A program made the position numbers and the translations under genes. From a virus: a DNA stretch of 64,000 nt. The stretch is taken from positions 92,224-156,223 of IMG/VR virus record IMGVR_UViG_3300045970_000382. One strand, 5' to 3'. Shown here piece by piece: positions 31,832-49,434 of the stretch. The notes beneath the pieces are model-generated. The model saw only the letters and a list, made by a program, of their open reading frames with translations, had not been told where the DNA came from and ran no database searches. Positions within the stretch are counted from its first letter, which is position 1; every line of letters starts with the position of its first letter.

Positions 31832-32058
31832 AAGCAACAAAATCAGATCTTTTTAGATTAAGGATATCTAATTCTGATAGCAGAATCCTAGTTCCGAAAG
31901 TAAAGGCTTTTTGTTTTATCACGGAACTAGAATTAAAGATTAAGCAACAAAATCAGATCTTTTTAGATTAAGGATATCTAATTCTGATAGCAGAATCCTA
32001 GTTCCGAAAGTAAAGGCTTTTTGTTTTATCACGGAACTAGAATTAAAGATTAAGCAAC
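31832..32058. repeat. Perfect 110-bp tandem duplication bounded by AAGCAAC microhomology
   Basis: 31832-31941 equals 31942-32051; AAGCAAC recurs at 32052. Confidence 0.9.
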
Positions 32059-32281: not shown

Positions 32282-32380
32282 TGTGTTTTAAGCACTGTTT
32301 TATTAACTTATGTCAGTATATCAAGCCAGTTGCTTTCTAAGCTTAAACAGCGTTTTTGGCGGCTATTTTAACAGGGTTTT
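32282..32380. repeat. ~100-bp phased T-tract element, copy C
   Basis: Aligns with copy B. Confidence 0.6.
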
Positions 32381-33113
32381 AGTCGTTTGGTTCGACCACA
32401 TAATTTATTAAAGCTAAATACACTTTTAGATCTAACTGATCTTTATAAAAGTTTGCTAATCTTCTAATTTCAGCTTCTTTAGATACTTTATAAGCTAGAT
32501 ATGCTTCTTGTTCTGTTTTGTAATAACCAAGATATTTATTTTTTCCTTTAATACTACATCGAGCTTGATATGGATTTGGTTTACCTTCATAATAAGTAAC
32601 TCCAATACAACATTCACCTCTATTAGCATCACGTTTTATTAAAAGTTTATTTATTTCTTGTGGAAGTAAACAACATGTTTCTGGTGAATATATCTCATTA
32701 TGTTTAAAAAGTATATCTTTATCTAGTTGCCAATCTAAATCTGATCCAAACATTTGTAAATAATCATGAGCAAAGTTTTGAAAATTCCACCATCTTTCAC
32801 AAACAGCACAACCAATATAAGAAGGTTGTTTTAATTGAGTATCTTCGTTATAACATCTTCCTAGCATAGACTTCCAACACTTATAAATTCTTAAATGTGT
32901 TTTAGGAAAATAAATTCCAATTCCAATAAAACCTATATTACAAACACTAGGATGATTTGGATTTTTAACTAGACCATTTCTTAATTGGCTTGCTTGACAA
33001 GTTGTTTCAGTCCCATCATCAAATCTGACTCTTACATCATTACAATCTATATACTTTATAACAATACAAGAACCAGAACTATTCGTTTCAAATCTGTCAC
33101 CTACCTTAATCAT
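32379..33113 (-). CDS. HNH-like/AP2 homing endonuclease, family copy 6
   Basis: Same motifs as copy 1. Confidence 0.8.
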   Translation of the reverse strand: MIKVGDRFETNSSGSCIVIKYIDCNDVRVRFDDGTETTCQASQLRNGLVKNPNHPSVCNIGFIGIGIYFPKTHLRIYKCWKSMLGRCYNEDTQLKQPSYIGCAVCERWWNFQNFAHDYLQMFGSDLDWQLDKDILFKHNEIYSPETCCLLPQEINKLLIKRDANRGECCIGVTYYEGKPNPYQARCSIKGKNKYLGYYKTEQEAYLAYKVSKEAEIRRLANFYKDQLDLKVYLALINYVVEPND

Positions 33114-33380
33114 TTTTTACCTATAAAACCTGAACAATGTTAAAATGAAAGCTTATTGTTTCTACAATAAACATTCTATGATTCATGAAAAGTTTAGTCT
33201 TAGGATCCCAAACAGAAGTCAAATTAAGAGTATCAGTTTTATTCTTTATATCACGAAGTATCTCATGGTAAGATACTTTATCAATGTATATGTAGAATTT
33301 TATATCTGTTTGGTTTGGATTGTTTTTTAATACTCTAGCTGTATCAGCACAAATCCTATTATAAAGATCATAAAATGTTA

Positions 33381-35009
33381 TCATAATAGTGAGAAAGAAG
33401 ATATTACAGCTGGAGTATTACTATCAAAACCAACAACATCTAACATATTGCTATCTAATGGGTCTGCTATTGTAAATCCATTTGATTCCATAGCAGTAAC
33501 AATTAATTTAGCATTAGGTTTATTCATAATTGTGCGGTATTTCTTAAGTAGCGTACTAGGATGTGATCCCTGATTTACTTCATTATCAGTATAACAAACA
33601 AATACATCCACATCCAGTTTATTGTCTATAGCGTATTCAAACATCAACCCTATATTGGTAGATCCAAAACTGGTATTATTTAATACATCAGTAACTTCTT
33701 TAAGACTCATAGTCTCATTTATAGCTAAAGGTTGTATCACGTTATGAAATCCAAGAATATAACATTTAGGTTCTGCTTTAATGGTAGTCATGGCAAGAAC
33801 AGCAGAAGCAACTCTTGGAGTAAATCCTGGAATACCACCAATATTGTTCCATGACATGGATGCCGACACATCTATACATAGTAAGTATTTTTTATTTGTG
33901 GGTTTAATATTTTCAAAGGCCATATAAAATGCTTTTTCAAGAGCAGTAACAATTCTATTTTCAGGATTCCAAATTAAGTTACCTTTTAAACCTCTACCTG
34001 ATTTATAGATATGGTAAGCCATTAAAATTTGTATAGGATGTTGACGAGAACGTTTAAGTTCTTCTTCATTGGTAATTCTACCAATAATATAATCCACATT
34101 ATCAGATAAAGGTTTTATATAACCATTAGCAGTAAGAACACCTAAATTACGCATCATGGCATCATACGGACTGTTTTTGATTAAAGAAGCCCAAATTTCT
34201 GGAATCTTCAACCAATCAGTAGGAATCATCTCCCTAGTTAAACCATAGCAATCAATAGCTTCTTTCTTTTCAGAAATAGTTGTTAGATGGTCATACTGAA
34301 ACGCTAGTTCATGTCCCACTAATATTCGTAATTCTTTATTAGCGCAATTTAGTTGGAAAGGTTTTTTAACAGCCCATGCAAAAAGGGTATTAATATCTTT
34401 GTTATCAGTCTTTGGTTTACAAAGACGAAGTACGTCTCGATGTGACCAACCATTTCTTGATTGGTATTTAACCAGTTGATAGGCTAATTTTGAAACATCT
34501 AAATCCAAATACCAGTTTTTAAGAGCATCAGAAAATAGTCTACCCCGACCACGGAAGTATTTAGAGTATTCAACAAAAGCAAACAAATGAGTTCCAATTC
34601 TACAAACCTCATTTAGTTTAGATAGTGCATATTTTCTTGTTTCTTTATTATCAACACTACCAGCATAAGCAAGAGCAAATATACAAGTTTCGTTTTTAAG
34701 ACAACGTCCTTCAGTTGAAATGTTGACAATAAGATCAATAGTTTCAATAGGATGTTTGAAGAGAGCTTTGTCTAAATCACTTACATTGTCTTTTGTAAGC
34801 TTTTTTTCTTTGACATAGTAGGTTCCGCCAGTTGTACCAAGAATAAGAAACCGTTCTACTTGTTTAAGTAATGGAGTTTCAAATATAAACCCACTTGTGT
34901 TATTTTCTACCATATCTGTACGACCAGCAATAGGTCTATCTACAGGTTGGTCGCCAACTATTTTTTTATGGGGGACGTGCTGCTCAAATTTGAAGGCCAT
35001 AATTTTCAT
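33381..35009 (-). CDS. rsr: Ro60/TROVE ribonucleoprotein (Rsr ortholog)
   Basis: RFLILGT.GGTYY, RIGTHLF, KYQSRNGWSHRDVLRL, AMMRNLG, HP; vWA MIDAS DVSASM and TDNE; DVVGFDS. Confidence 0.95.
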   Translation of the reverse strand: MKIMAFKFEQHVPHKKIVGDQPVDRPIAGRTDMVENNTSGFIFETPLLKQVERFLILGTTGGTYYVKEKKLTKDNVSDLDKALFKHPIETIDLIVNISTEGRCLKNETCIFALAYAGSVDNKETRKYALSKLNEVCRIGTHLFAFVEYSKYFRGRGRLFSDALKNWYLDLDVSKLAYQLVKYQSRNGWSHRDVLRLCKPKTDNKDINTLFAWAVKKPFQLNCANKELRILVGHELAFQYDHLTTISEKKEAIDCYGLTREMIPTDWLKIPEIWASLIKNSPYDAMMRNLGVLTANGYIKPLSDNVDYIIGRITNEEELKRSRQHPIQILMAYHIYKSGRGLKGNLIWNPENRIVTALEKAFYMAFENIKPTNKKYLLCIDVSASMSWNNIGGIPGFTPRVASAVLAMTTIKAEPKCYILGFHNVIQPLAINETMSLKEVTDVLNNTSFGSTNIGLMFEYAIDNKLDVDVFVCYTDNEVNQGSHPSTLLKKYRTIMNKPNAKLIVTAMESNGFTIADPLDSNMLDVVGFDSNTPAVISSFSLL

Positions 35010-35029
35010 TCCTTAATAGGATAAGATAA

Positions 35030-35284
35030 AAAGACCGTCCTTCCTACATTCCCATAGTTCACGGATCGGACTTATTTACTTAAGGTAATATTTTTTCCTT
35101 TGTAAGGTTTAAAGAATATGATACCTTCTCAGCCAGTCATGCCCGTCTACTCACACTTCAGTAGCAGAACACTGTTAGTAGAGCATATACCTCACCTTGA
35201 CAGTAACAAGGGCTACATTTGTTTTGCTGTAGCTTACATAGGTTTCTAAACCATTAGCCGTCTAACGCTCAGGCAGCGGGAATA
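35030..35284 (-). ncRNA. Candidate ~250-nt multibranch structured RNA / Ro60 leader
   Basis: At least 6 hairpins (GCUACA/UGUAGC, CCUUG/CAAGG, UCUACU/AGUAGA, AAGGU/ACCUU) and a closing CUAUUCCC/GGGAAUGUAG helix. Confidence 0.5.
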
Positions 35285-35287
35285 GGG

Positions 35288-35381
35288 TGTTGCTGTTCCG
35301 AATCGAACGGAATAAGCAAAATATAAAAGGAAAGGTGGCAACCTGCCATATTTAAACTTTAGAGTCATTACTCACAGCAAC
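35288..35381 (-). ncRNA. tRNA-like RNA with enlarged non-canonical anticodon arm
   Basis: Acceptor GUUGCUG/CAGCAAC, D arm GAGU/ACUC, T arm UUCCG-UUCGAUU-CGGAA; ~50-nt central arm; followed by ACCC, not CCA. Confidence 0.7.
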
Positions 35382-35384
35382 AAA

Positions 35385-35452
35385 AGAGCAAGTTAAATAA
35401 GATTCGGAGGAGTCATTTTCAAAGAAGTGATAACCAAATCTAATTCAGCTCT
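35385..35452 (-). ncRNA. Y RNA-like hairpin (Y-c)
   Basis: AGAGCUGA...GGUUAUC...CUUGCUCU Ro-binding bulged helix. Confidence 0.8.
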
Positions 35453-35603
35453 AATCCAGTAACAGTTTAGAGTCAATACTGGGAGACTTAAAGTTGCCGT
35501 GTATTTGTCCACACACGGCGTGTGTTCAGGCCAGGTATTTATTTGCGTGAGTTATCGGCACTGACGGTTTCCATCTCACATCCACCAACCACGGAGGATT
35601 TAA

Positions 35604-35669
35604 TTAGAGCAAGTTATTCAAAACTTGGAAGGATCATTATGAGGGATAACCAAGTCTTTTCAGCTCTAA
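35604..35669 (-). ncRNA. Y RNA-like hairpin (Y-b)
   Basis: UUAGAGCUGA-AAAGACUUGG-UUAUC...CCAAGUUUU...CUUGCUCUAA. Confidence 0.82.
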
Positions 35670-35676
35670 ATTGAGC

Positions 35677-35801
35677 GGTTACTGGTGGGACTCGAACCTA
35701 CGACAAACTGTGTTTTGATAATCTAATATCATCAGTTCAAAAGAACAAGATTGAATATTAGTATTTTATGACGGCTGTTCTACCGCTGAACTACAGTAAC
35801 C
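35677..35801 (-). ncRNA. tRNA-His-derived Y RNA (YrlA-like, circularly permuted)
   Basis: 8-bp acceptor GGUUACUG/CAGUAACC, canonical D and T arms; CUUGUUC-UUUU-GAACUGA...AUUAUC in place of the anticodon loop. Confidence 0.8.
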
Positions 35802-35896
35802 ATGTTCTTTTAAATAATTTACTATGGCTTATTAATTAATTATTTATTTAAAAATTAGAACTGTTTTGATTCTTTTAAGCAAAGAACAAAGACAGC

Positions 35897-35962
35897 AAAC
35901 AAGAAGCTTGAATCACAGGGAAAAACGGTGAGAAATAACCTGTGATTACTTTATTTCAGTTT
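35897..35962 (-). ncRNA. Y RNA-like hairpin (Y-a)
   Basis: AAACUGA...AAUCACAGG-UUAUU...CCUGUGAUU...CUUGUUU. Confidence 0.7.
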
Positions 35963-35987
35963 CAATCCGCAGCCACACAAGGCTGAC
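35959..35987 (-). CRISPR. Degenerate solitary CRISPR-repeat-like unit (not an array)
   Basis: GTCAGCCTTGTGTGGCTGCGGATTGAAAC: hairpin plus a 3' 12-mer identical to that of the repeat at 49398. Confidence 0.55.
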
Positions 35988-36015
35988 TTGGTACTGTTTT
36001 TCAGCACCAAAACAT

Positions 36016-36044
36016 ATTATATATTAAGTGAATTGATAAAACAA
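36016..36044 (-). promoter_or_regulatory. Promoter for the Y RNA-Ro60 operon
   Basis: TTGTTT-N17-TATAAT. Confidence 0.6.
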
Positions 36045-36064
36045 GATGCTATTTAAATTATTAA

Positions 36065-36093
36065 GTAGACCATCCAATAATTGGATGGTCTAC
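36065..36093. terminator. 13-bp perfect hairpin insulating the Ro operon from upstream genes
   Basis: GTAGACCATCCAA-TAA-TTGGATGGTCTAC. Confidence 0.6.
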
Positions 36094-36116
36094 AATAAAG
36101 TCTGGATTGCTGAAGT

Positions 36117-36557
36117 TTAAATCGGAGCAGATTCATTTAAGGTTGCGGAAACAGCTAAAGAAACAGCTTGACCTGCAATAACTTGAACTTCAAGTAAGCC
36201 TGCAAGTAGAGCTTCGCCTCCGCCAATAAGGGAATCGGCAATAACGTTGATAGTGGCAGAACCTATGCCTACTGGAGTGATTAAGCCTGATGCATCAACG
36301 GTAACAACAGCTTCATCTGTACTTGAGAAGCTAACATTTTCAACTGAAGCTGGATGGCCGTGGGCATCTACTGAACTTATAAAAATTGTAGCGGTTCTAT
36401 CATCTGGAAGTAATAGTGACATAAAATTAATACCTTTAAAAGTTGCCCCCAAATAATTTATTGAAAGAATAAGCCGGGGGTGTAACTTTTTCTTTCTCTT
36501 TTTTTTACAACAAACTTGATCTTCAATAAAAATCAGGATCGGTTTAAGTATTTTCAT
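36117..36557 (-). CDS. Ig-like (Big_2) domain protein
   Basis: FSSTDEAVVTVDASGLITPVGIGSATI; true start may be internal (MSLLLPDD). Confidence 0.7.
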   Translation of the reverse strand: MKILKPILIFIEDQVCCKKKRKKKLHPRLILSINYLGATFKGINFMSLLLPDDRTATIFISSVDAHGHPASVENVSFSSTDEAVVTVDASGLITPVGIGSATINVIADSLIGGGEALLAGLLEVQVIAGQAVSLAVSATLNESAPI

Positions 36558-38533: not shown

Positions 38534-39268
38534 CTAATCATCAAAATCTACCTTGTAATCAACAAGAGCTTGGTACACCCGTGGATCAAGCTCTTCTTTA
38601 TATAAATTTGCCAATCTTTTAATTTCAGCTTCTTTAGCAGGTTTATATACTAGATATGCTTCTTGTTCTGTTTTGAAACTACCAAGATGTTTTGTTTTTC
38701 CTTCAATATTACAACGGGCTTGGTATGGTTTTGTTCTACCTTCACGGTACGTAACTCCAATACGAAGTTCACCTCTGCTAGCATCACTTTTTGTTAAAAG
38801 ATAATTTATTTTAGATGGAACCAAACAACATGTTTCTCTTGAATATATCTTATTTCTTTTAAATAATATATCTTTGTCTAAATGCCAATCCAAATCTGAA
38901 CCCACCATTAGTAAATAATCATGAGCGAAGTTTTGAAAACTATGCCATCTAATATCTACAGTACATCCAATATAAGTAGGATATTTTCTCTGAATATCTT
39001 CGTTATAACATCTTTGTAGCATACAAATCCAAACCATATAAATCCTTTTATGTGATGTATAAGAATAAATTCCAATTCCAATAAAACCAACACCACTAAA
39101 TTTAAGACTTGGATATTTAACATTTCCATTTCTTAAATTTTGGGCTGTACAAATTTTTTCAGCTCCATCTTCAAATCTAATTCTTACATTATTACAATCT
39201 ATATACTCTATTACAACACAAGAACCATAATTATTTGTTTCAAATCTATCACCAACTTTTATTTGCAT
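38534..39268 (-). CDS. HNH-like/AP2 homing endonuclease, family copy 7
   Basis: Same motifs as copy 1. Confidence 0.8.
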   Translation of the reverse strand: MQIKVGDRFETNNYGSCVVIEYIDCNNVRIRFEDGAEKICTAQNLRNGNVKYPSLKFSGVGFIGIGIYSYTSHKRIYMVWICMLQRCYNEDIQRKYPTYIGCTVDIRWHSFQNFAHDYLLMVGSDLDWHLDKDILFKRNKIYSRETCCLVPSKINYLLTKSDASRGELRIGVTYREGRTKPYQARCNIEGKTKHLGSFKTEQEAYLVYKPAKEAEIKRLANLYKEELDPRVYQALVDYKVDFDD

Positions 39269-49397: not shown

Positions 49398-49434
49398 GTA
49401 TCTCCCGGCCTAACCGCCGGGAGCGGATTGAAAC
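49398..49434 (+). CRISPR. Solitary 37-bp CRISPR repeat unit (RNA anti-CRISPR candidate)
   Basis: GTATCTCCCGGCCTAACCGCCGGGAGCGGATTGAAAC: GT start, 8-bp hairpin, ATTGAAAC end; no neighbouring repeat. Confidence 0.8.

What the first reader, a model, noticed from the sequence alone, without database searches (positions are those of the whole stretch)
33381..36044. Phage Ro60 operon preceded by a polycistronic array of Y RNAs and tRNA mimics
Seen on the minus strand, in order: promoter (36044-36016), CRISPR-like repeat, Y-a, tRNA-His/Y hybrid, Y-b, hairpin cluster, Y-c, second tRNA mimic, ~250-nt structured RNA, Ro60 ORF. Four modules share the helix NNC-U-GA...(G/A)UUAU(C/U)...CUUG-NN with compensatory changes (GAGC/GCUC twice, GAAC/GUUC, AAAC/GUUU). 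Known: this matches the Ro-binding bulged helix and UUAUC of Y RNAs (human GUCCGA...GUUAUC...CUUGAC). Bacterial rsr loci usually have one or two Y RNAs, often near rtcB, and tether Ro to effectors such as PNPase. No rtcB lies in this window. Inference: a modular phage RNP system in which one Ro60 ring loads interchangeable RNA adaptors, released by tRNA-like processing. Possible roles are decoying host anticodon nucleases or CRISPR proteins, or redirecting RNA decay.
Basis: partly seen in the sequence, partly recalled or inferred. Interest (0 to 1): 0.95.

Follow-up and report, generated by a model that had tools for sequence, protein, structure and literature searches.

The report
Phage Ro60 gene with Y-RNA array
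An uncultured 156-kb phage encodes the ring-shaped RNA-binding protein Ro60 and, just upstream on the same strand, at least three of its likely partner RNAs, one of them built as a complete tRNA whose anticodon end carries the Ro60-docking helix, a wiring I found in no paper I could search.

Summary
The core observation holds. ORF 35009-33381 (-) is a full-length Ro60. The 1-kb non-coding stretch before it holds two simple Y RNAs: Y-b (35667-35606) and Y-c (35452-35385). A covariance model built only from other phages' Ro60 loci finds these two and nothing else in the 156-kb genome.

It also holds a 125-nt tRNA-shaped RNA (35801-35677). In this RNA the anticodon loop is replaced by a loop-closed copy of the same bulged helix. 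This is the circular permutation of the known YrlA.

I found the same hybrids in at least 9 other viral Ro60 loci, with strong covariation. They often alternate with simple Y RNAs at 5-7 nt spacing, which suggests release by tRNA-processing enzymes.

Parts that did not hold:
- "Y-a" fails the models.
- The "250-nt structured RNA" folds no better than shuffles.
- The second tRNA mimic is supported only by a descriptor.
- The promoter and the decoy roles are untested.

The CRISPR-like hairpin is real, but other arrays lack it.

Rfam Y_RNA and YrlA models do not hit the window, and the bulged base is U rather than C.

Verdict: a new variant of a known kind. Earlier follow-ups of this scan reported the same tRNA-shaped design on other DNA.

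The parts
36065..36093 (-). Perfect palindromic hairpin followed by a U-rich tail. Likely terminator of the upstream Ig-domain gene (36557-36117).
   Evidence: Read from the sequence. Palindrome picked up on both strands. Not listed by the terminator scan.
36016..36044 (-). Candidate sigma-70-type promoter TTGTTT-17 nt-TATAAT.
   Evidence: Sequence only. The -35 matches 3 of 6, so it is below the scan threshold. Unverified.
35959..35987 (-). CRISPR-repeat-like hairpin (SRU1): a CAGCC/GGCUG stem followed by the tail GCGGAUUGAAAC.
   Evidence: The 12-nt tail recurs at 49423-49434, against 0.13 expected. The same tail ends genuine CRISPR repeats in more than 100 genomes. Other phage Ro60 loci have no counterpart.
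35897..35962 (-). 'Y-a': a look-alike with a 9-bp hairpin followed by GGUUAU. Its lower helix has only 4 bp and its spacer is long.
   Evidence: The pattern matches, but the covariance models reject it: 4.2 bits, E 2.3 for the upper stem only, and no hit with R3.
35677..35801 (-). tRNA-shaped Y RNA (hybrid). It has a 7-bp acceptor stem with free ends, D arm, T arm and an extended anticodon arm. That arm ends in a loop-closed bulged helix: CUUGUUC, a UUUU loop, then GAAC-U-GA, followed by AUUAUC.
   Evidence: Rfam tRNA 39.7 bits with a 59-nt insert. Seed of model R1. Non-seed relatives score 62-83 bits. Covariation: 94.6% of cells paired, 27 of 32 pairs changed on both sides.
35606..35667 (-). 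Simple Y RNA Y-b: 6-bp lower stem, bulged U, G-U and A-U pairs, 9-bp upper stem, GGUUAUC.
   Evidence: R2 37.8 bits, E 1e-7. R3 45.0 bits. Fold z-score -2.55.
35453..35605 (-). Unassigned spacer with hairpins (45% GC).
   Evidence: Fold z-score -2.05. No homologue. No model hit.
35385..35452 (-). Simple Y RNA Y-c, a paralogue of Y-b with changes in the upper stem.
   Evidence: R2 25.9 bits, E 1.6e-4. R3 40.6 bits. Fold z-score -3.79.
35288..35384 (-). tRNA-like element 2: perfect 7-bp acceptor, T arm with a UUCGAUU loop, small D-like hairpin, irregular fourth arm. It starts 3 nt after Y-c.
   Evidence: Strict descriptor. Fold z-score -3.51 with a cloverleaf-like MFE structure. Not hit by Rfam tRNA or R1.
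35010..35287 (-). Non-coding leader before Ro60 (40.6% GC). No evidence of a defined structure. AAGGA ribosome-binding site 8 nt before the ATG.
   Evidence: Fold z-score -0.27. No homologue. No terminator-like site found here.
33381..35009 (-). Ro60 gene (TROVE ring plus vWA domain).
33121..33384 (-). 87-aa ORF whose start overlaps the Ro60 stop (ATGA). The same position after Ro60 is conserved in L042.
   Evidence: tblastn 33% identity, E 1e-9 at L042 5122-5388. No family found.

Best explanation
This is a phage-borne Ro60 ribonucleoprotein cassette.

**Proposed transcription and processing**
- One transcript probably starts after the terminator of the upstream gene.
- It carries, in order: a CRISPR-repeat-like hairpin, a tRNA-shaped Y RNA, simple Y RNA Y-b, a spacer, simple Y RNA Y-c, a second tRNA-like element, a leader, Ro60 and a small conserved ORF.
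- The tRNA-shaped elements give host RNase P and 3'-end tRNA-processing enzymes sites at which to cut the transcript. This would free the neighbouring Y RNAs. This step is inferred.

**Proposed assembly**
- Each released RNA offers the same docking site: a lower stem, one bulged pyrimidine, then G-U and A-U pairs, followed after an upper stem by UUAUC.
- The phage Ro60 ring binds that site. This is inferred by homology with Ro60-Y RNA complexes.
- The variable part of each RNA then recruits a different partner. The simple Y RNAs may recruit an exonuclease such as PNPase, as in Deinococcus and Thermus phage phiLo. The tRNA-shaped one may recruit a tRNA-recognising protein, as proposed for YrlA.

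**The hybrid**
It has the same parts as YrlA, but its ends lie in the acceptor stem and its Ro helix is closed by a loop.

**Shown versus inferred**
Shown: the gene, the RNAs' conserved structures and their linkage to Ro60. Inferred: expression, processing, binding and biological role.
For: **The gene**
Ro60 is identified by Pfam and by PDB sequence matches.

**Simple Y modules**
- Y-b and Y-c are detected by a model trained only on other phages, and they are the only hits in the genome.
- All 62 simple-Y hits in 69 sources lie on the Ro60 strand and next to the gene.
- 95.1% of cells are paired and 14 of 16 pairs changed on both sides; slid controls reach at most 53%.

**Hybrids**
- The closest locus, L042 (Ro60 58% identical), carries 2 simple Y RNAs and 3 hybrids upstream of Ro60. 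Their helix sequences differ: GAGC/GCUC, GAAC/GUUC, GGGAC/GUCCC, GUGAC/GUCAC.
- Non-seed hybrids occur in L016, L017, L022, L004, L198 and L197 at 62-83 bits.
- Covariation: 94.6% of cells paired, 27 of 32 pairs changed on both sides.
- Rfam YrlA matches across the junction of two tandem hybrids in L017. This is the result expected if the two designs are circular permutations of each other.

**Match to published Ro60-binding features**
- The motif fits the published Ro-contact motif GNCGAA(N)G / GGUCCGA, and the YUAY that starts the V loop of YrlA (PMC4201824).
- Mycobacterium smegmatis YrlA is cut by RNase P and receives CCA.

**Layout**
- Y-H-Y-H-Y alternation with 5-7 nt spacers in L016 and L022.
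- The window shows spacers of 3 and 8 nt.
- No terminator-like site was found by the scan between the array and Ro60.
Against: - No expression or binding data exist.
- Rfam Y_RNA, YrlA and stem-bulge RNA models give no hit in the window at E<=10. Cultured actinophage controls do hit YrlA, at 36-42 bits.
- The bulged base is U, not the C of characterised Ro sites. U is the minority form: 6 of 62 simple modules and 4 of 18 hybrids.
- The covariation counts come from alignments fitted to the models.
- Only one close relative (L042) was available.
- Y-a, the spacer and the 278-nt leader remain unexplained.
- The promoter is weak on consensus.
Confidence: 0.75

Rival explanations
1. The modules stay within the Ro60 mRNA and act as an autoregulatory leader. 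Ro60 would bind its own 5' untranslated region to control stability or translation, and no free small RNAs would be made.
For: The array and the ORF share a strand, and the scan found no terminator-like site between them. A 278-nt leader with no assigned function lies directly before the start codon.
Against: In L016, L017 and L022 the modules lie downstream of Ro60. In L042 an ORF separates the array from Ro60. tRNA-shaped units with intact acceptor and T arms at 3-8 nt spacing are the classic layout of processed transcripts. Known Y RNAs are free small RNAs (PMC4201824).
Confidence: 0.1
2. The 125-nt element is an ordinary decoding tRNA gene (His-like, G-1:C73) interrupted by an intron or insertion that is removed to give a working tRNA.
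For: Rfam tRNA scores 39.7 bits, above the cut-off. G at -1 can pair with C73. D-loop GG and T-loop UUCGA are intact.
Against: The insert is not random. It carries the same helix, bulge and UUAUC as Y-b and Y-c, and it covaries across at least 15 hybrids in unrelated phages. At 59 nt it is far too short for a group I intron, and no intron family hits. No 7-nt anticodon loop with U33 can be drawn. Other hybrids lack G-1:C73. ARAGORN rejects it. The phage has no other tRNA.
Confidence: 0.03
3. The head of the array is an RNA-based anti-CRISPR or mini-array device. The repeat-like hairpin would be bound or cut by a host Cas6/Cas5d-type nuclease. That would either sequester the nuclease or create a crRNA-like 5' handle on the downstream RNA. 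The Ro60 system would be incidental.
For: The 12-nt tail is shared with a second solitary repeat in the window. That second repeat is 36 of 37 identical to a genuine CRISPR repeat. The tail ends real repeats in many bacterial arrays.
Against: SRU1 shares only the tail and the hairpin shape with real repeats, 15-20 of 37 positions. No other Ro60 array carries such an element. It explains none of the conserved Y and tRNA modules.
Confidence: 0.1

Closest known systems
YrlA (Rfam RF02553; Chen et al. 2014, PMC4201824; structure preprint 10.1101/312249)
   Same: Encoded next to Ro60 on the same strand. Carries a Ro-contact motif, then YUAY/UUAUC, and a tRNA-like domain with conserved T and D arms and an acceptor-type stem. 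Found in bacteria and phages. M. smegmatis YrlA is cut by RNase P and gets CCA.
   Different: In YrlA the free ends lie in the Ro stem and the acceptor stem is closed by a loop. Here the acceptor stem has the free ends, as in a real tRNA, and the Ro helix is closed by a UUUU loop. An anticodon-stem remnant is kept. The bulged base is U. The RF02553 model does not hit the window.
Simple bacterial and phage Y RNAs (Salmonella/Mycobacterium YrlB; Thermus phage phiLo Yrl1/Yrl2, PMC12135203)
   Same: Short stem-bulge-stem RNAs upstream of Ro60 with a CGAA-type motif. phiLo Ro60 binds two such RNAs and forms complexes with host PNPase in vitro.
   Different: Here the motif is UGAA, not CGAA. There are two or more copies, and they are interleaved with tRNA-shaped elements. 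No binding data exist.
Metazoan Y RNAs and nematode stem-bulge RNAs (Rfam RF00019, RF01656)
   Same: Lower stem with a single bulged pyrimidine followed by G-U and A-U pairs. Upper stem followed by UUAUC. Length 60-70 nt, similar to the shortest animal forms.
   Different: No Rfam hit at E<=10. Bulged U instead of C. Not a polymerase III gene. The resemblance partly rests on recalled sequences.
Deinococcus radiodurans Yrn1
   Same: A Y RNA with tRNA-like T-arm features. Its orientation differs from YrlA, which shows that more than one wiring exists.
   Different: Yrn1 still has its ends in the Ro-binding stem and lacks a full D arm.
Solitary CRISPR repeat units / RNA anti-CRISPRs of phages (recalled from the literature, not checked here)
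   Same: A single repeat-like hairpin with a conserved 3' handle, carried by a phage outside any array.
   Different: SRU1 matches real repeats only in its last 12 nt. It sits at the head of a Y-RNA transcript. Its function is untested.

Membership tests
Ro60/TROVE protein | TROVE (HEAT-repeat ring) domain followed by a vWA domain, at full length | tested here: met
   Pfam TROVE 2.4e-34 and vWA_Ro60 1.8e-50. Aligns over residues 33-541 to Xenopus Ro60 1YVP at E 2e-101.
YrlA (RF02553) | Match to the family covariance model | tested here: not met
   No hit in 34900-36200 at E<=10. Controls: Cashline 42.2 bits and LinStu 36.1 bits; the gathering score is 69.
YrlA (RF02553) | Free 5'/3' ends in the Ro-binding stem, with the acceptor-type stem closed by a loop | tested here: not met
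   The hybrid has an open 7-bp acceptor stem, and its Ro helix is closed by UUUU. The YrlA model matches only across the junction of tandem hybrids in L017.
YrlA (RF02553) | tRNA-like domain with conserved T and D arms | tested here: met
   Rfam tRNA 39.7 bits. D stem 4 of 4 and T stem 4 of 5 paired, with GG and UUCGA loops.
YrlA and Y RNAs in general | Ro-contact motif (GNCGAA(N)G / GGUCCGA) in a bulged helix | tested here: inconclusive
   The helix geometry and the G-U/A-U pairs are kept, but the motif reads GCUGAA or ACUGA, with U for C. C is the majority form in relatives.
YrlA and Y RNAs in general | Encoded beside Ro60 on the same strand | tested here: met
   All modules lie 0.4-0.8 kb upstream on the minus strand. 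62 of 62 family hits are on the Ro60 strand.
YrlA and Y RNAs in general | Bound by Ro60 in vivo or in vitro | not testable with these tools
   Needs RIP-seq or EMSA.
Metazoan Y_RNA (RF00019) | Match to the family covariance model | tested here: not met
   No hit at E<=10.
Decoding tRNA | 7-nt anticodon loop on a 5-bp stem; accepted by tRNA finders | tested here: not met
   A 59-nt insert replaces the loop. ARAGORN finds no tRNA in the window.
CRISPR repeat | Regularly spaced identical copies separated by spacers | tested here: not met
   Only two copies of the 12-nt tail, 13.4 kb apart and on opposite strands. Both are solitary.
CRISPR repeat | Sequence match to a repeat of a genuine array | tested here: inconclusive
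   SRU1 matches in its last 12 nt only. The other solitary copy (49398-49434) matches 36 of 37.

The most novel reading that the evidence does not exclude
The cassette is a multi-pronged RNA counter-defence device. One phage Ro60 ring is loaded with interchangeable adaptors. The tRNA-shaped adaptor has a free, CCA-capable acceptor end and a possible His-type G-1:C73. It would act as bait that draws tRNA-targeting host nucleases or tRNA-binding enzymes onto Ro60 and an attached exonuclease. The co-transcribed CRISPR-repeat mimic would engage the host's crRNA-processing nuclease. A corollary is that these open-ended hybrids are the evolutionary intermediate between true tRNAs and YrlA.
Probability: 0.12. 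Interest if true: 0.9.

Novelty: new variant of a known kind. Interest (0 to 1): 0.66.

Why it matters
Ro60 and its Y RNAs are conserved from bacteria to humans, yet what the tRNA-like part of bacterial Y RNAs binds is still unknown.

These tRNA-shaped versions have a normal, open acceptor end. They can therefore be tested directly as substrates of RNase P, the CCA-adding enzyme, synthetases and tRNA-targeting defence nucleases.

They also suggest how YrlA could have arisen from a tRNA: by insertion of a Ro helix, followed by permutation.

Phage loci with up to seven adaptors around one Ro60 gene argue that the ring is a general platform re-aimed by exchangeable RNAs. A Ro60-like phage protein has already been reported to counter a bacterial defence system (preprint 10.1101/2024.10.10.617714). 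The partner RNAs named here make that kind of mechanism testable.

There is a practical point too. These RNAs are missed by ARAGORN, or called tRNAs with introns by Rfam, and they are unannotated in phage genomes.

Tried and rejected
- **Literal motif counting.** The loose helix pattern is common in AT-rich DNA. A looser two-helix descriptor gave about 20 false hits per shuffle. I relied on covariance models instead.
- **RNAalifold on the MAFFT alignment.** It found only the lower stem, because the upper 3' strand was out of register. I solved this by seeding with a same-register subset.
- **Pairing of UUAUC with the loop.** Only a weak enrichment over shuffles, so I dropped the idea.
- **Y-a as a fourth module.** Rejected by R2 and R3.
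- **The 250-nt RNA.** No excess stability, no homologue by blastn or nhmmer in 73 loci, and only noise-level Rfam hits (TPP at E 3.1).
- **Second copy elsewhere.** A 28-nt match at genome position 86730 lies inside an HD-GYP-type coding gene and is a chance match.
- **Closer relatives.** The metagenome scan gave only two distant loci. Scans with P0004 and P0006 added nothing closer than L042.
- **Loose acceptor/T-arm descriptor.** Not discriminating. I replaced it with a strict one.
- **CRISPR type of the matching array.** No cas genes lie in the 8 kb fetched.
- **RNA-repair partners in the phage.** No RtcB, CCA-adding enzyme or Rnl-type ligase was found.
- **Two review papers** could not be read.
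Full report
**Source and setting**

The window is bases 92224-156223 of a 156,223-bp IMG/VR virus record that CheckV rates as complete. It is AT-rich, at 31.9% GC.

The finding lies on the minus strand between an Ig-domain structural-type gene (36557-36117; Big_2) and an HNH endonuclease gene (33113-32379).

**The protein**

ORF 35009-33381 encodes 542 aa with Pfam TROVE (2.4e-34) and vWA_Ro60 (1.8e-50).
- It aligns end to end with Xenopus Ro60 (1YVP, 2e-101), human RO60 and Deinococcus Rsr.
- Relatives occur in 359 cultured phage records, mostly actinophages annotated 'Ro-like RNA binding protein'.
- The closest proteins in the large collection are 51-58% identical.

It is a genuine Ro60.

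**The modules as described**

That pattern alone means little. A loose form occurs hundreds of times in this genome, and a two-helix descriptor still gives about 20 hits per shuffled data set.

Rfam gives only one hit. It is a tRNA at 35800-35677 (39.7 bits, cut-off 29) with 59 nt in place of the anticodon loop. No Y_RNA, YrlA or stem-bulge RNA family hits, even at E<=10. ARAGORN finds no tRNA.

**Comparative evidence**

I collected 71 viral Ro60 loci and later a few more.

The only close relative is L042 (Ro60 58% identical). Upstream of its Ro60 it carries a very similar array:
- two simple modules;
- three tRNAs with inserts;
- one further tRNA-like element.

The same motifs are present but the helix sequences differ: GAGC/GCUC, GAAC/GUUC, GGGAC/GUCCC and GUGAC/GUCAC.

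*Simple Y RNAs.* Model R2 was built from ten modules of eight other phages, with none from the window or L042.
- It finds Y-b (35667-35606; 37.8 bits, E 1e-7) and Y-c (35452-35385; 25.9 bits, E 1.6e-4) as the only real hits in the window.
- It finds nothing in the remaining 92 kb of the genome.
- Over 69 sources it gives 62 hits. All lie on the Ro60 strand and beside the gene.
- On that alignment 95.1% of cells pair and 14 of 16 pairs show changes on both sides. Slid controls reach 37-53%.
- The G-U and A-U pairs next to the bulge hardly vary, as expected of a protein-contact site.

The consensus reads as follows: a 5-bp stem, a bulged C (56 of 62) or U (6 of 62), then GA, a 9-bp upper stem ending GG, then UUAUC or UUACC, a loop, a spacer, and CUUG plus the returning stem.

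This agrees with two features named by Chen et al. 2014 (PMC4201824). One is the Ro-contact motif GNCGAA(N)G, which they compare with the Xenopus GGUCCGA. The other is the conserved YUAY.

*Y-a.* It fails. Only its upper hairpin plus GGUUAU aligns (4.2 bits, E 2.3). The wider model R3 was trained on all 62 hits, including Y-b and Y-c, yet does not report it with filters off. Its lower helix has 4 bp, and its 5' strand overlaps the CRISPR-like tail.

*tRNA-shaped hybrid.* The 125-nt element has these parts:
- a 7-bp acceptor stem with free ends;
- a D arm with GG;
- a T arm with UUCGA;
- an anticodon-stem remnant;
- a 7-bp helix;
- the Ro-type helix closed by UUUU (CUUGUUC, loop, GAAC-U-GA), with AUUAUC following the returning strand.

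The order of elements equals that of a simple Y RNA opened in its loop and closed at its ends.

Model R1 was seeded with six such RNAs. It finds non-seed members at 62-83 bits:
- L017/L071 (three in tandem);
- L016 (three);
- L022 (two);
- L004;
- L198;
- L197.

Fifteen sequences, one of them an ordinary tRNA, give 94.6% paired cells. 27 of 32 pairs changed on both sides, including all pairs of the insert's upper helix and 4 of 6 in the Ro helix. Slid controls reach at most 47%. These alignments are fitted to the models, which inflates pairing somewhat. The double changes and the independence of R2 from the window are the stronger points.

**Relation to YrlA**

Rfam does hold YrlA. It hits upstream of Ro in Gordonia phage Cashline (42.2 bits) and mycobacteriophage LinStu (36.1 bits). 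Both are below the gathering score of 69 but significant.

In L017 the YrlA model matches across the junction of two tandem hybrids: T arm and acceptor 3' strand of one, then acceptor 5' strand and D arm of the next. That is the expected result if the hybrids are circular permutations of YrlA.

Chen et al. describe YrlA with its ends in the Ro stem and a loop-closed acceptor stem. They note that Deinococcus Yrn1 is wired differently again, and that M. smegmatis YrlA is cut by RNase P and receives CCA.

I found no paper describing the open-acceptor form. The nearest statement is a remark that some annotated tRNAs beside the Ro60-like gp130 of phage Bas63 might be Y RNAs. Two reviews could not be read, so prior description cannot be excluded.

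Moderate R1 hits of 139-168 nt also lie beside TROVE genes, on the same strand, in 3 of 12 bacterial loci sampled. The design is therefore not confined to phages.

**Layout and processing (inference)**

- In L016 and L022, simple Y RNAs and hybrids alternate Y-H-Y-H(-H)-Y with 5-7 nt between them.
- In L042, each simple Y RNA is followed within about 10 nt by a hybrid.
- In the window, the hybrid ends 8 nt before Y-b, and Y-c ends 3 nt before tRNA-like element 2.
- In cultured Gordonia phage Mareelih, an unannotated simple Y RNA sits between the tmRNA and tRNA-Arg genes.

This is the layout of transcripts cut by RNase P and 3' tRNA-processing enzymes. I think it the likeliest route of release.

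The phage itself encodes no ordinary tRNA, RtcB, CCA-adding enzyme or Rnl-type ligase. Processing and any effector must therefore come from the host.

**Other claimed parts**

- *tRNA-like element 2* (35384-35288). It has a perfect acceptor stem and T arm. A strict descriptor gives 3 hits per genome against 0.46 expected, and two of them lie in this array. Its MFE structure is cloverleaf-like with z -3.5. No model recognises it and no homologue was found. L042 has an analogous but unrelated element with an encoded CCA.
- *Hairpin cluster.* Modestly stable, z -2.05.
- *The 278-nt stretch before the start codon.* It folds no better than shuffles (z -0.27) and has no homologue. I treat it as an unexplained leader.
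- *Promoter.* It has a perfect -10 box and a 3-of-6 -35 box, after a strong hairpin ending the upstream gene.
- *Terminator.* No terminator-like site separates the array from Ro60.

**CRISPR-like hairpin**

The element at 35987-35959 is a 5-bp GC-rich hairpin followed by GCGGAUUGAAAC. The same 12 nt end a 37-nt solitary repeat at 49398-49434.

That solitary repeat is 36 of 37 identical to the repeat of a 19-copy array in a marine gammaproteobacterial genome. This gives a lead to the host. That genome has no TROVE gene.

The tail ends genuine repeats in many phyla. SRU1 itself matches real repeats only in the tail, and no other Ro60 array has such an element. It may be a Cas-nuclease site or a decoy. 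It is not part of the conserved design.

**Verdict**

| Element | Status |
|---|---|
| Ro60 gene | Real |
| Y-b and Y-c | Real |
| tRNA-shaped Y RNA | Real |
| tRNA-like element 2 | Plausible |
| Y-a | Not supported |
| 250-nt structured RNA | Not supported |

The system is a Ro60-Y RNA cassette, which is a known kind. It has two features I could not find described: the unpermuted, tRNA-ended counterpart of YrlA, and multi-adaptor arrays punctuated by tRNA shapes. The U-bulge variant is a further local difference.

Earlier follow-ups of this scan reached the same reading on other genomes. Those are AI notes and not independent evidence.

Noticed in passing
window 49398-49434 (+): Solitary 37-nt CRISPR repeat in an intergenic spot, followed by a T-run. 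It is 36 of 37 identical to the repeat of a 19-copy array in Gammaproteobacteria bacterium 50_400_T64 (L121). This is a lead to the host and possibly an RNA anti-CRISPR.
   Followed up: partly
window 32379-33113 (-) and 38534-39268 (-): Two paralogous 244-aa HNH endonuclease genes (PHROG 953, E 1e-65; about 78-80% nt identity), 6155 bp apart. They bracket the Ro60 cassette and three neighbouring genes.
   Followed up: partly
window 31832-32051: Perfect tandem duplication of a 110-nt unit.
   Followed up: no
window 33121-33384 (-); L042 5122-5388: An 87-aa ORF overlaps the Ro60 stop codon. It is conserved directly after Ro60 in the closest relative (33% identity, E 1e-9). No known family. It may be a partner of the Ro60 system.
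   Followed up: partly
L232 5902-5961 (Gordonia phage Mareelih, OP820470.1): Unannotated simple Y module (36.4 bits, E 3.6e-7) between the annotated tmRNA and tRNA-Arg genes, 0.8 kb after the Ro gene. Streptomyces phage Sham has a weaker one (L231 2583-2643).
   Followed up: no
L013 1190-3477: About ten Ro-helix modules in one viral locus. They include true YrlA-type units (T arm, loop-closed acceptor, D arm between the two Ro strands) mixed with simple Y RNAs.
   Followed up: partly
L237 391-529 (-), L240 2733-2878 (+), L236 2460-2627 (-): tRNA-ended RNAs of 139-168 nt with large inserts, beside TROVE genes in bacterial genomes of the phylum sampled (R1 28-34 bits). One carries GGCGAAUG.
   Followed up: partly
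genome C1:86730-86757 (outside the window): A 28-nt match to the 3' part of Y-b lies inside an HD-GYP-type coding gene, an unusual gene for a phage. The match looks like chance.
   Followed up: partly
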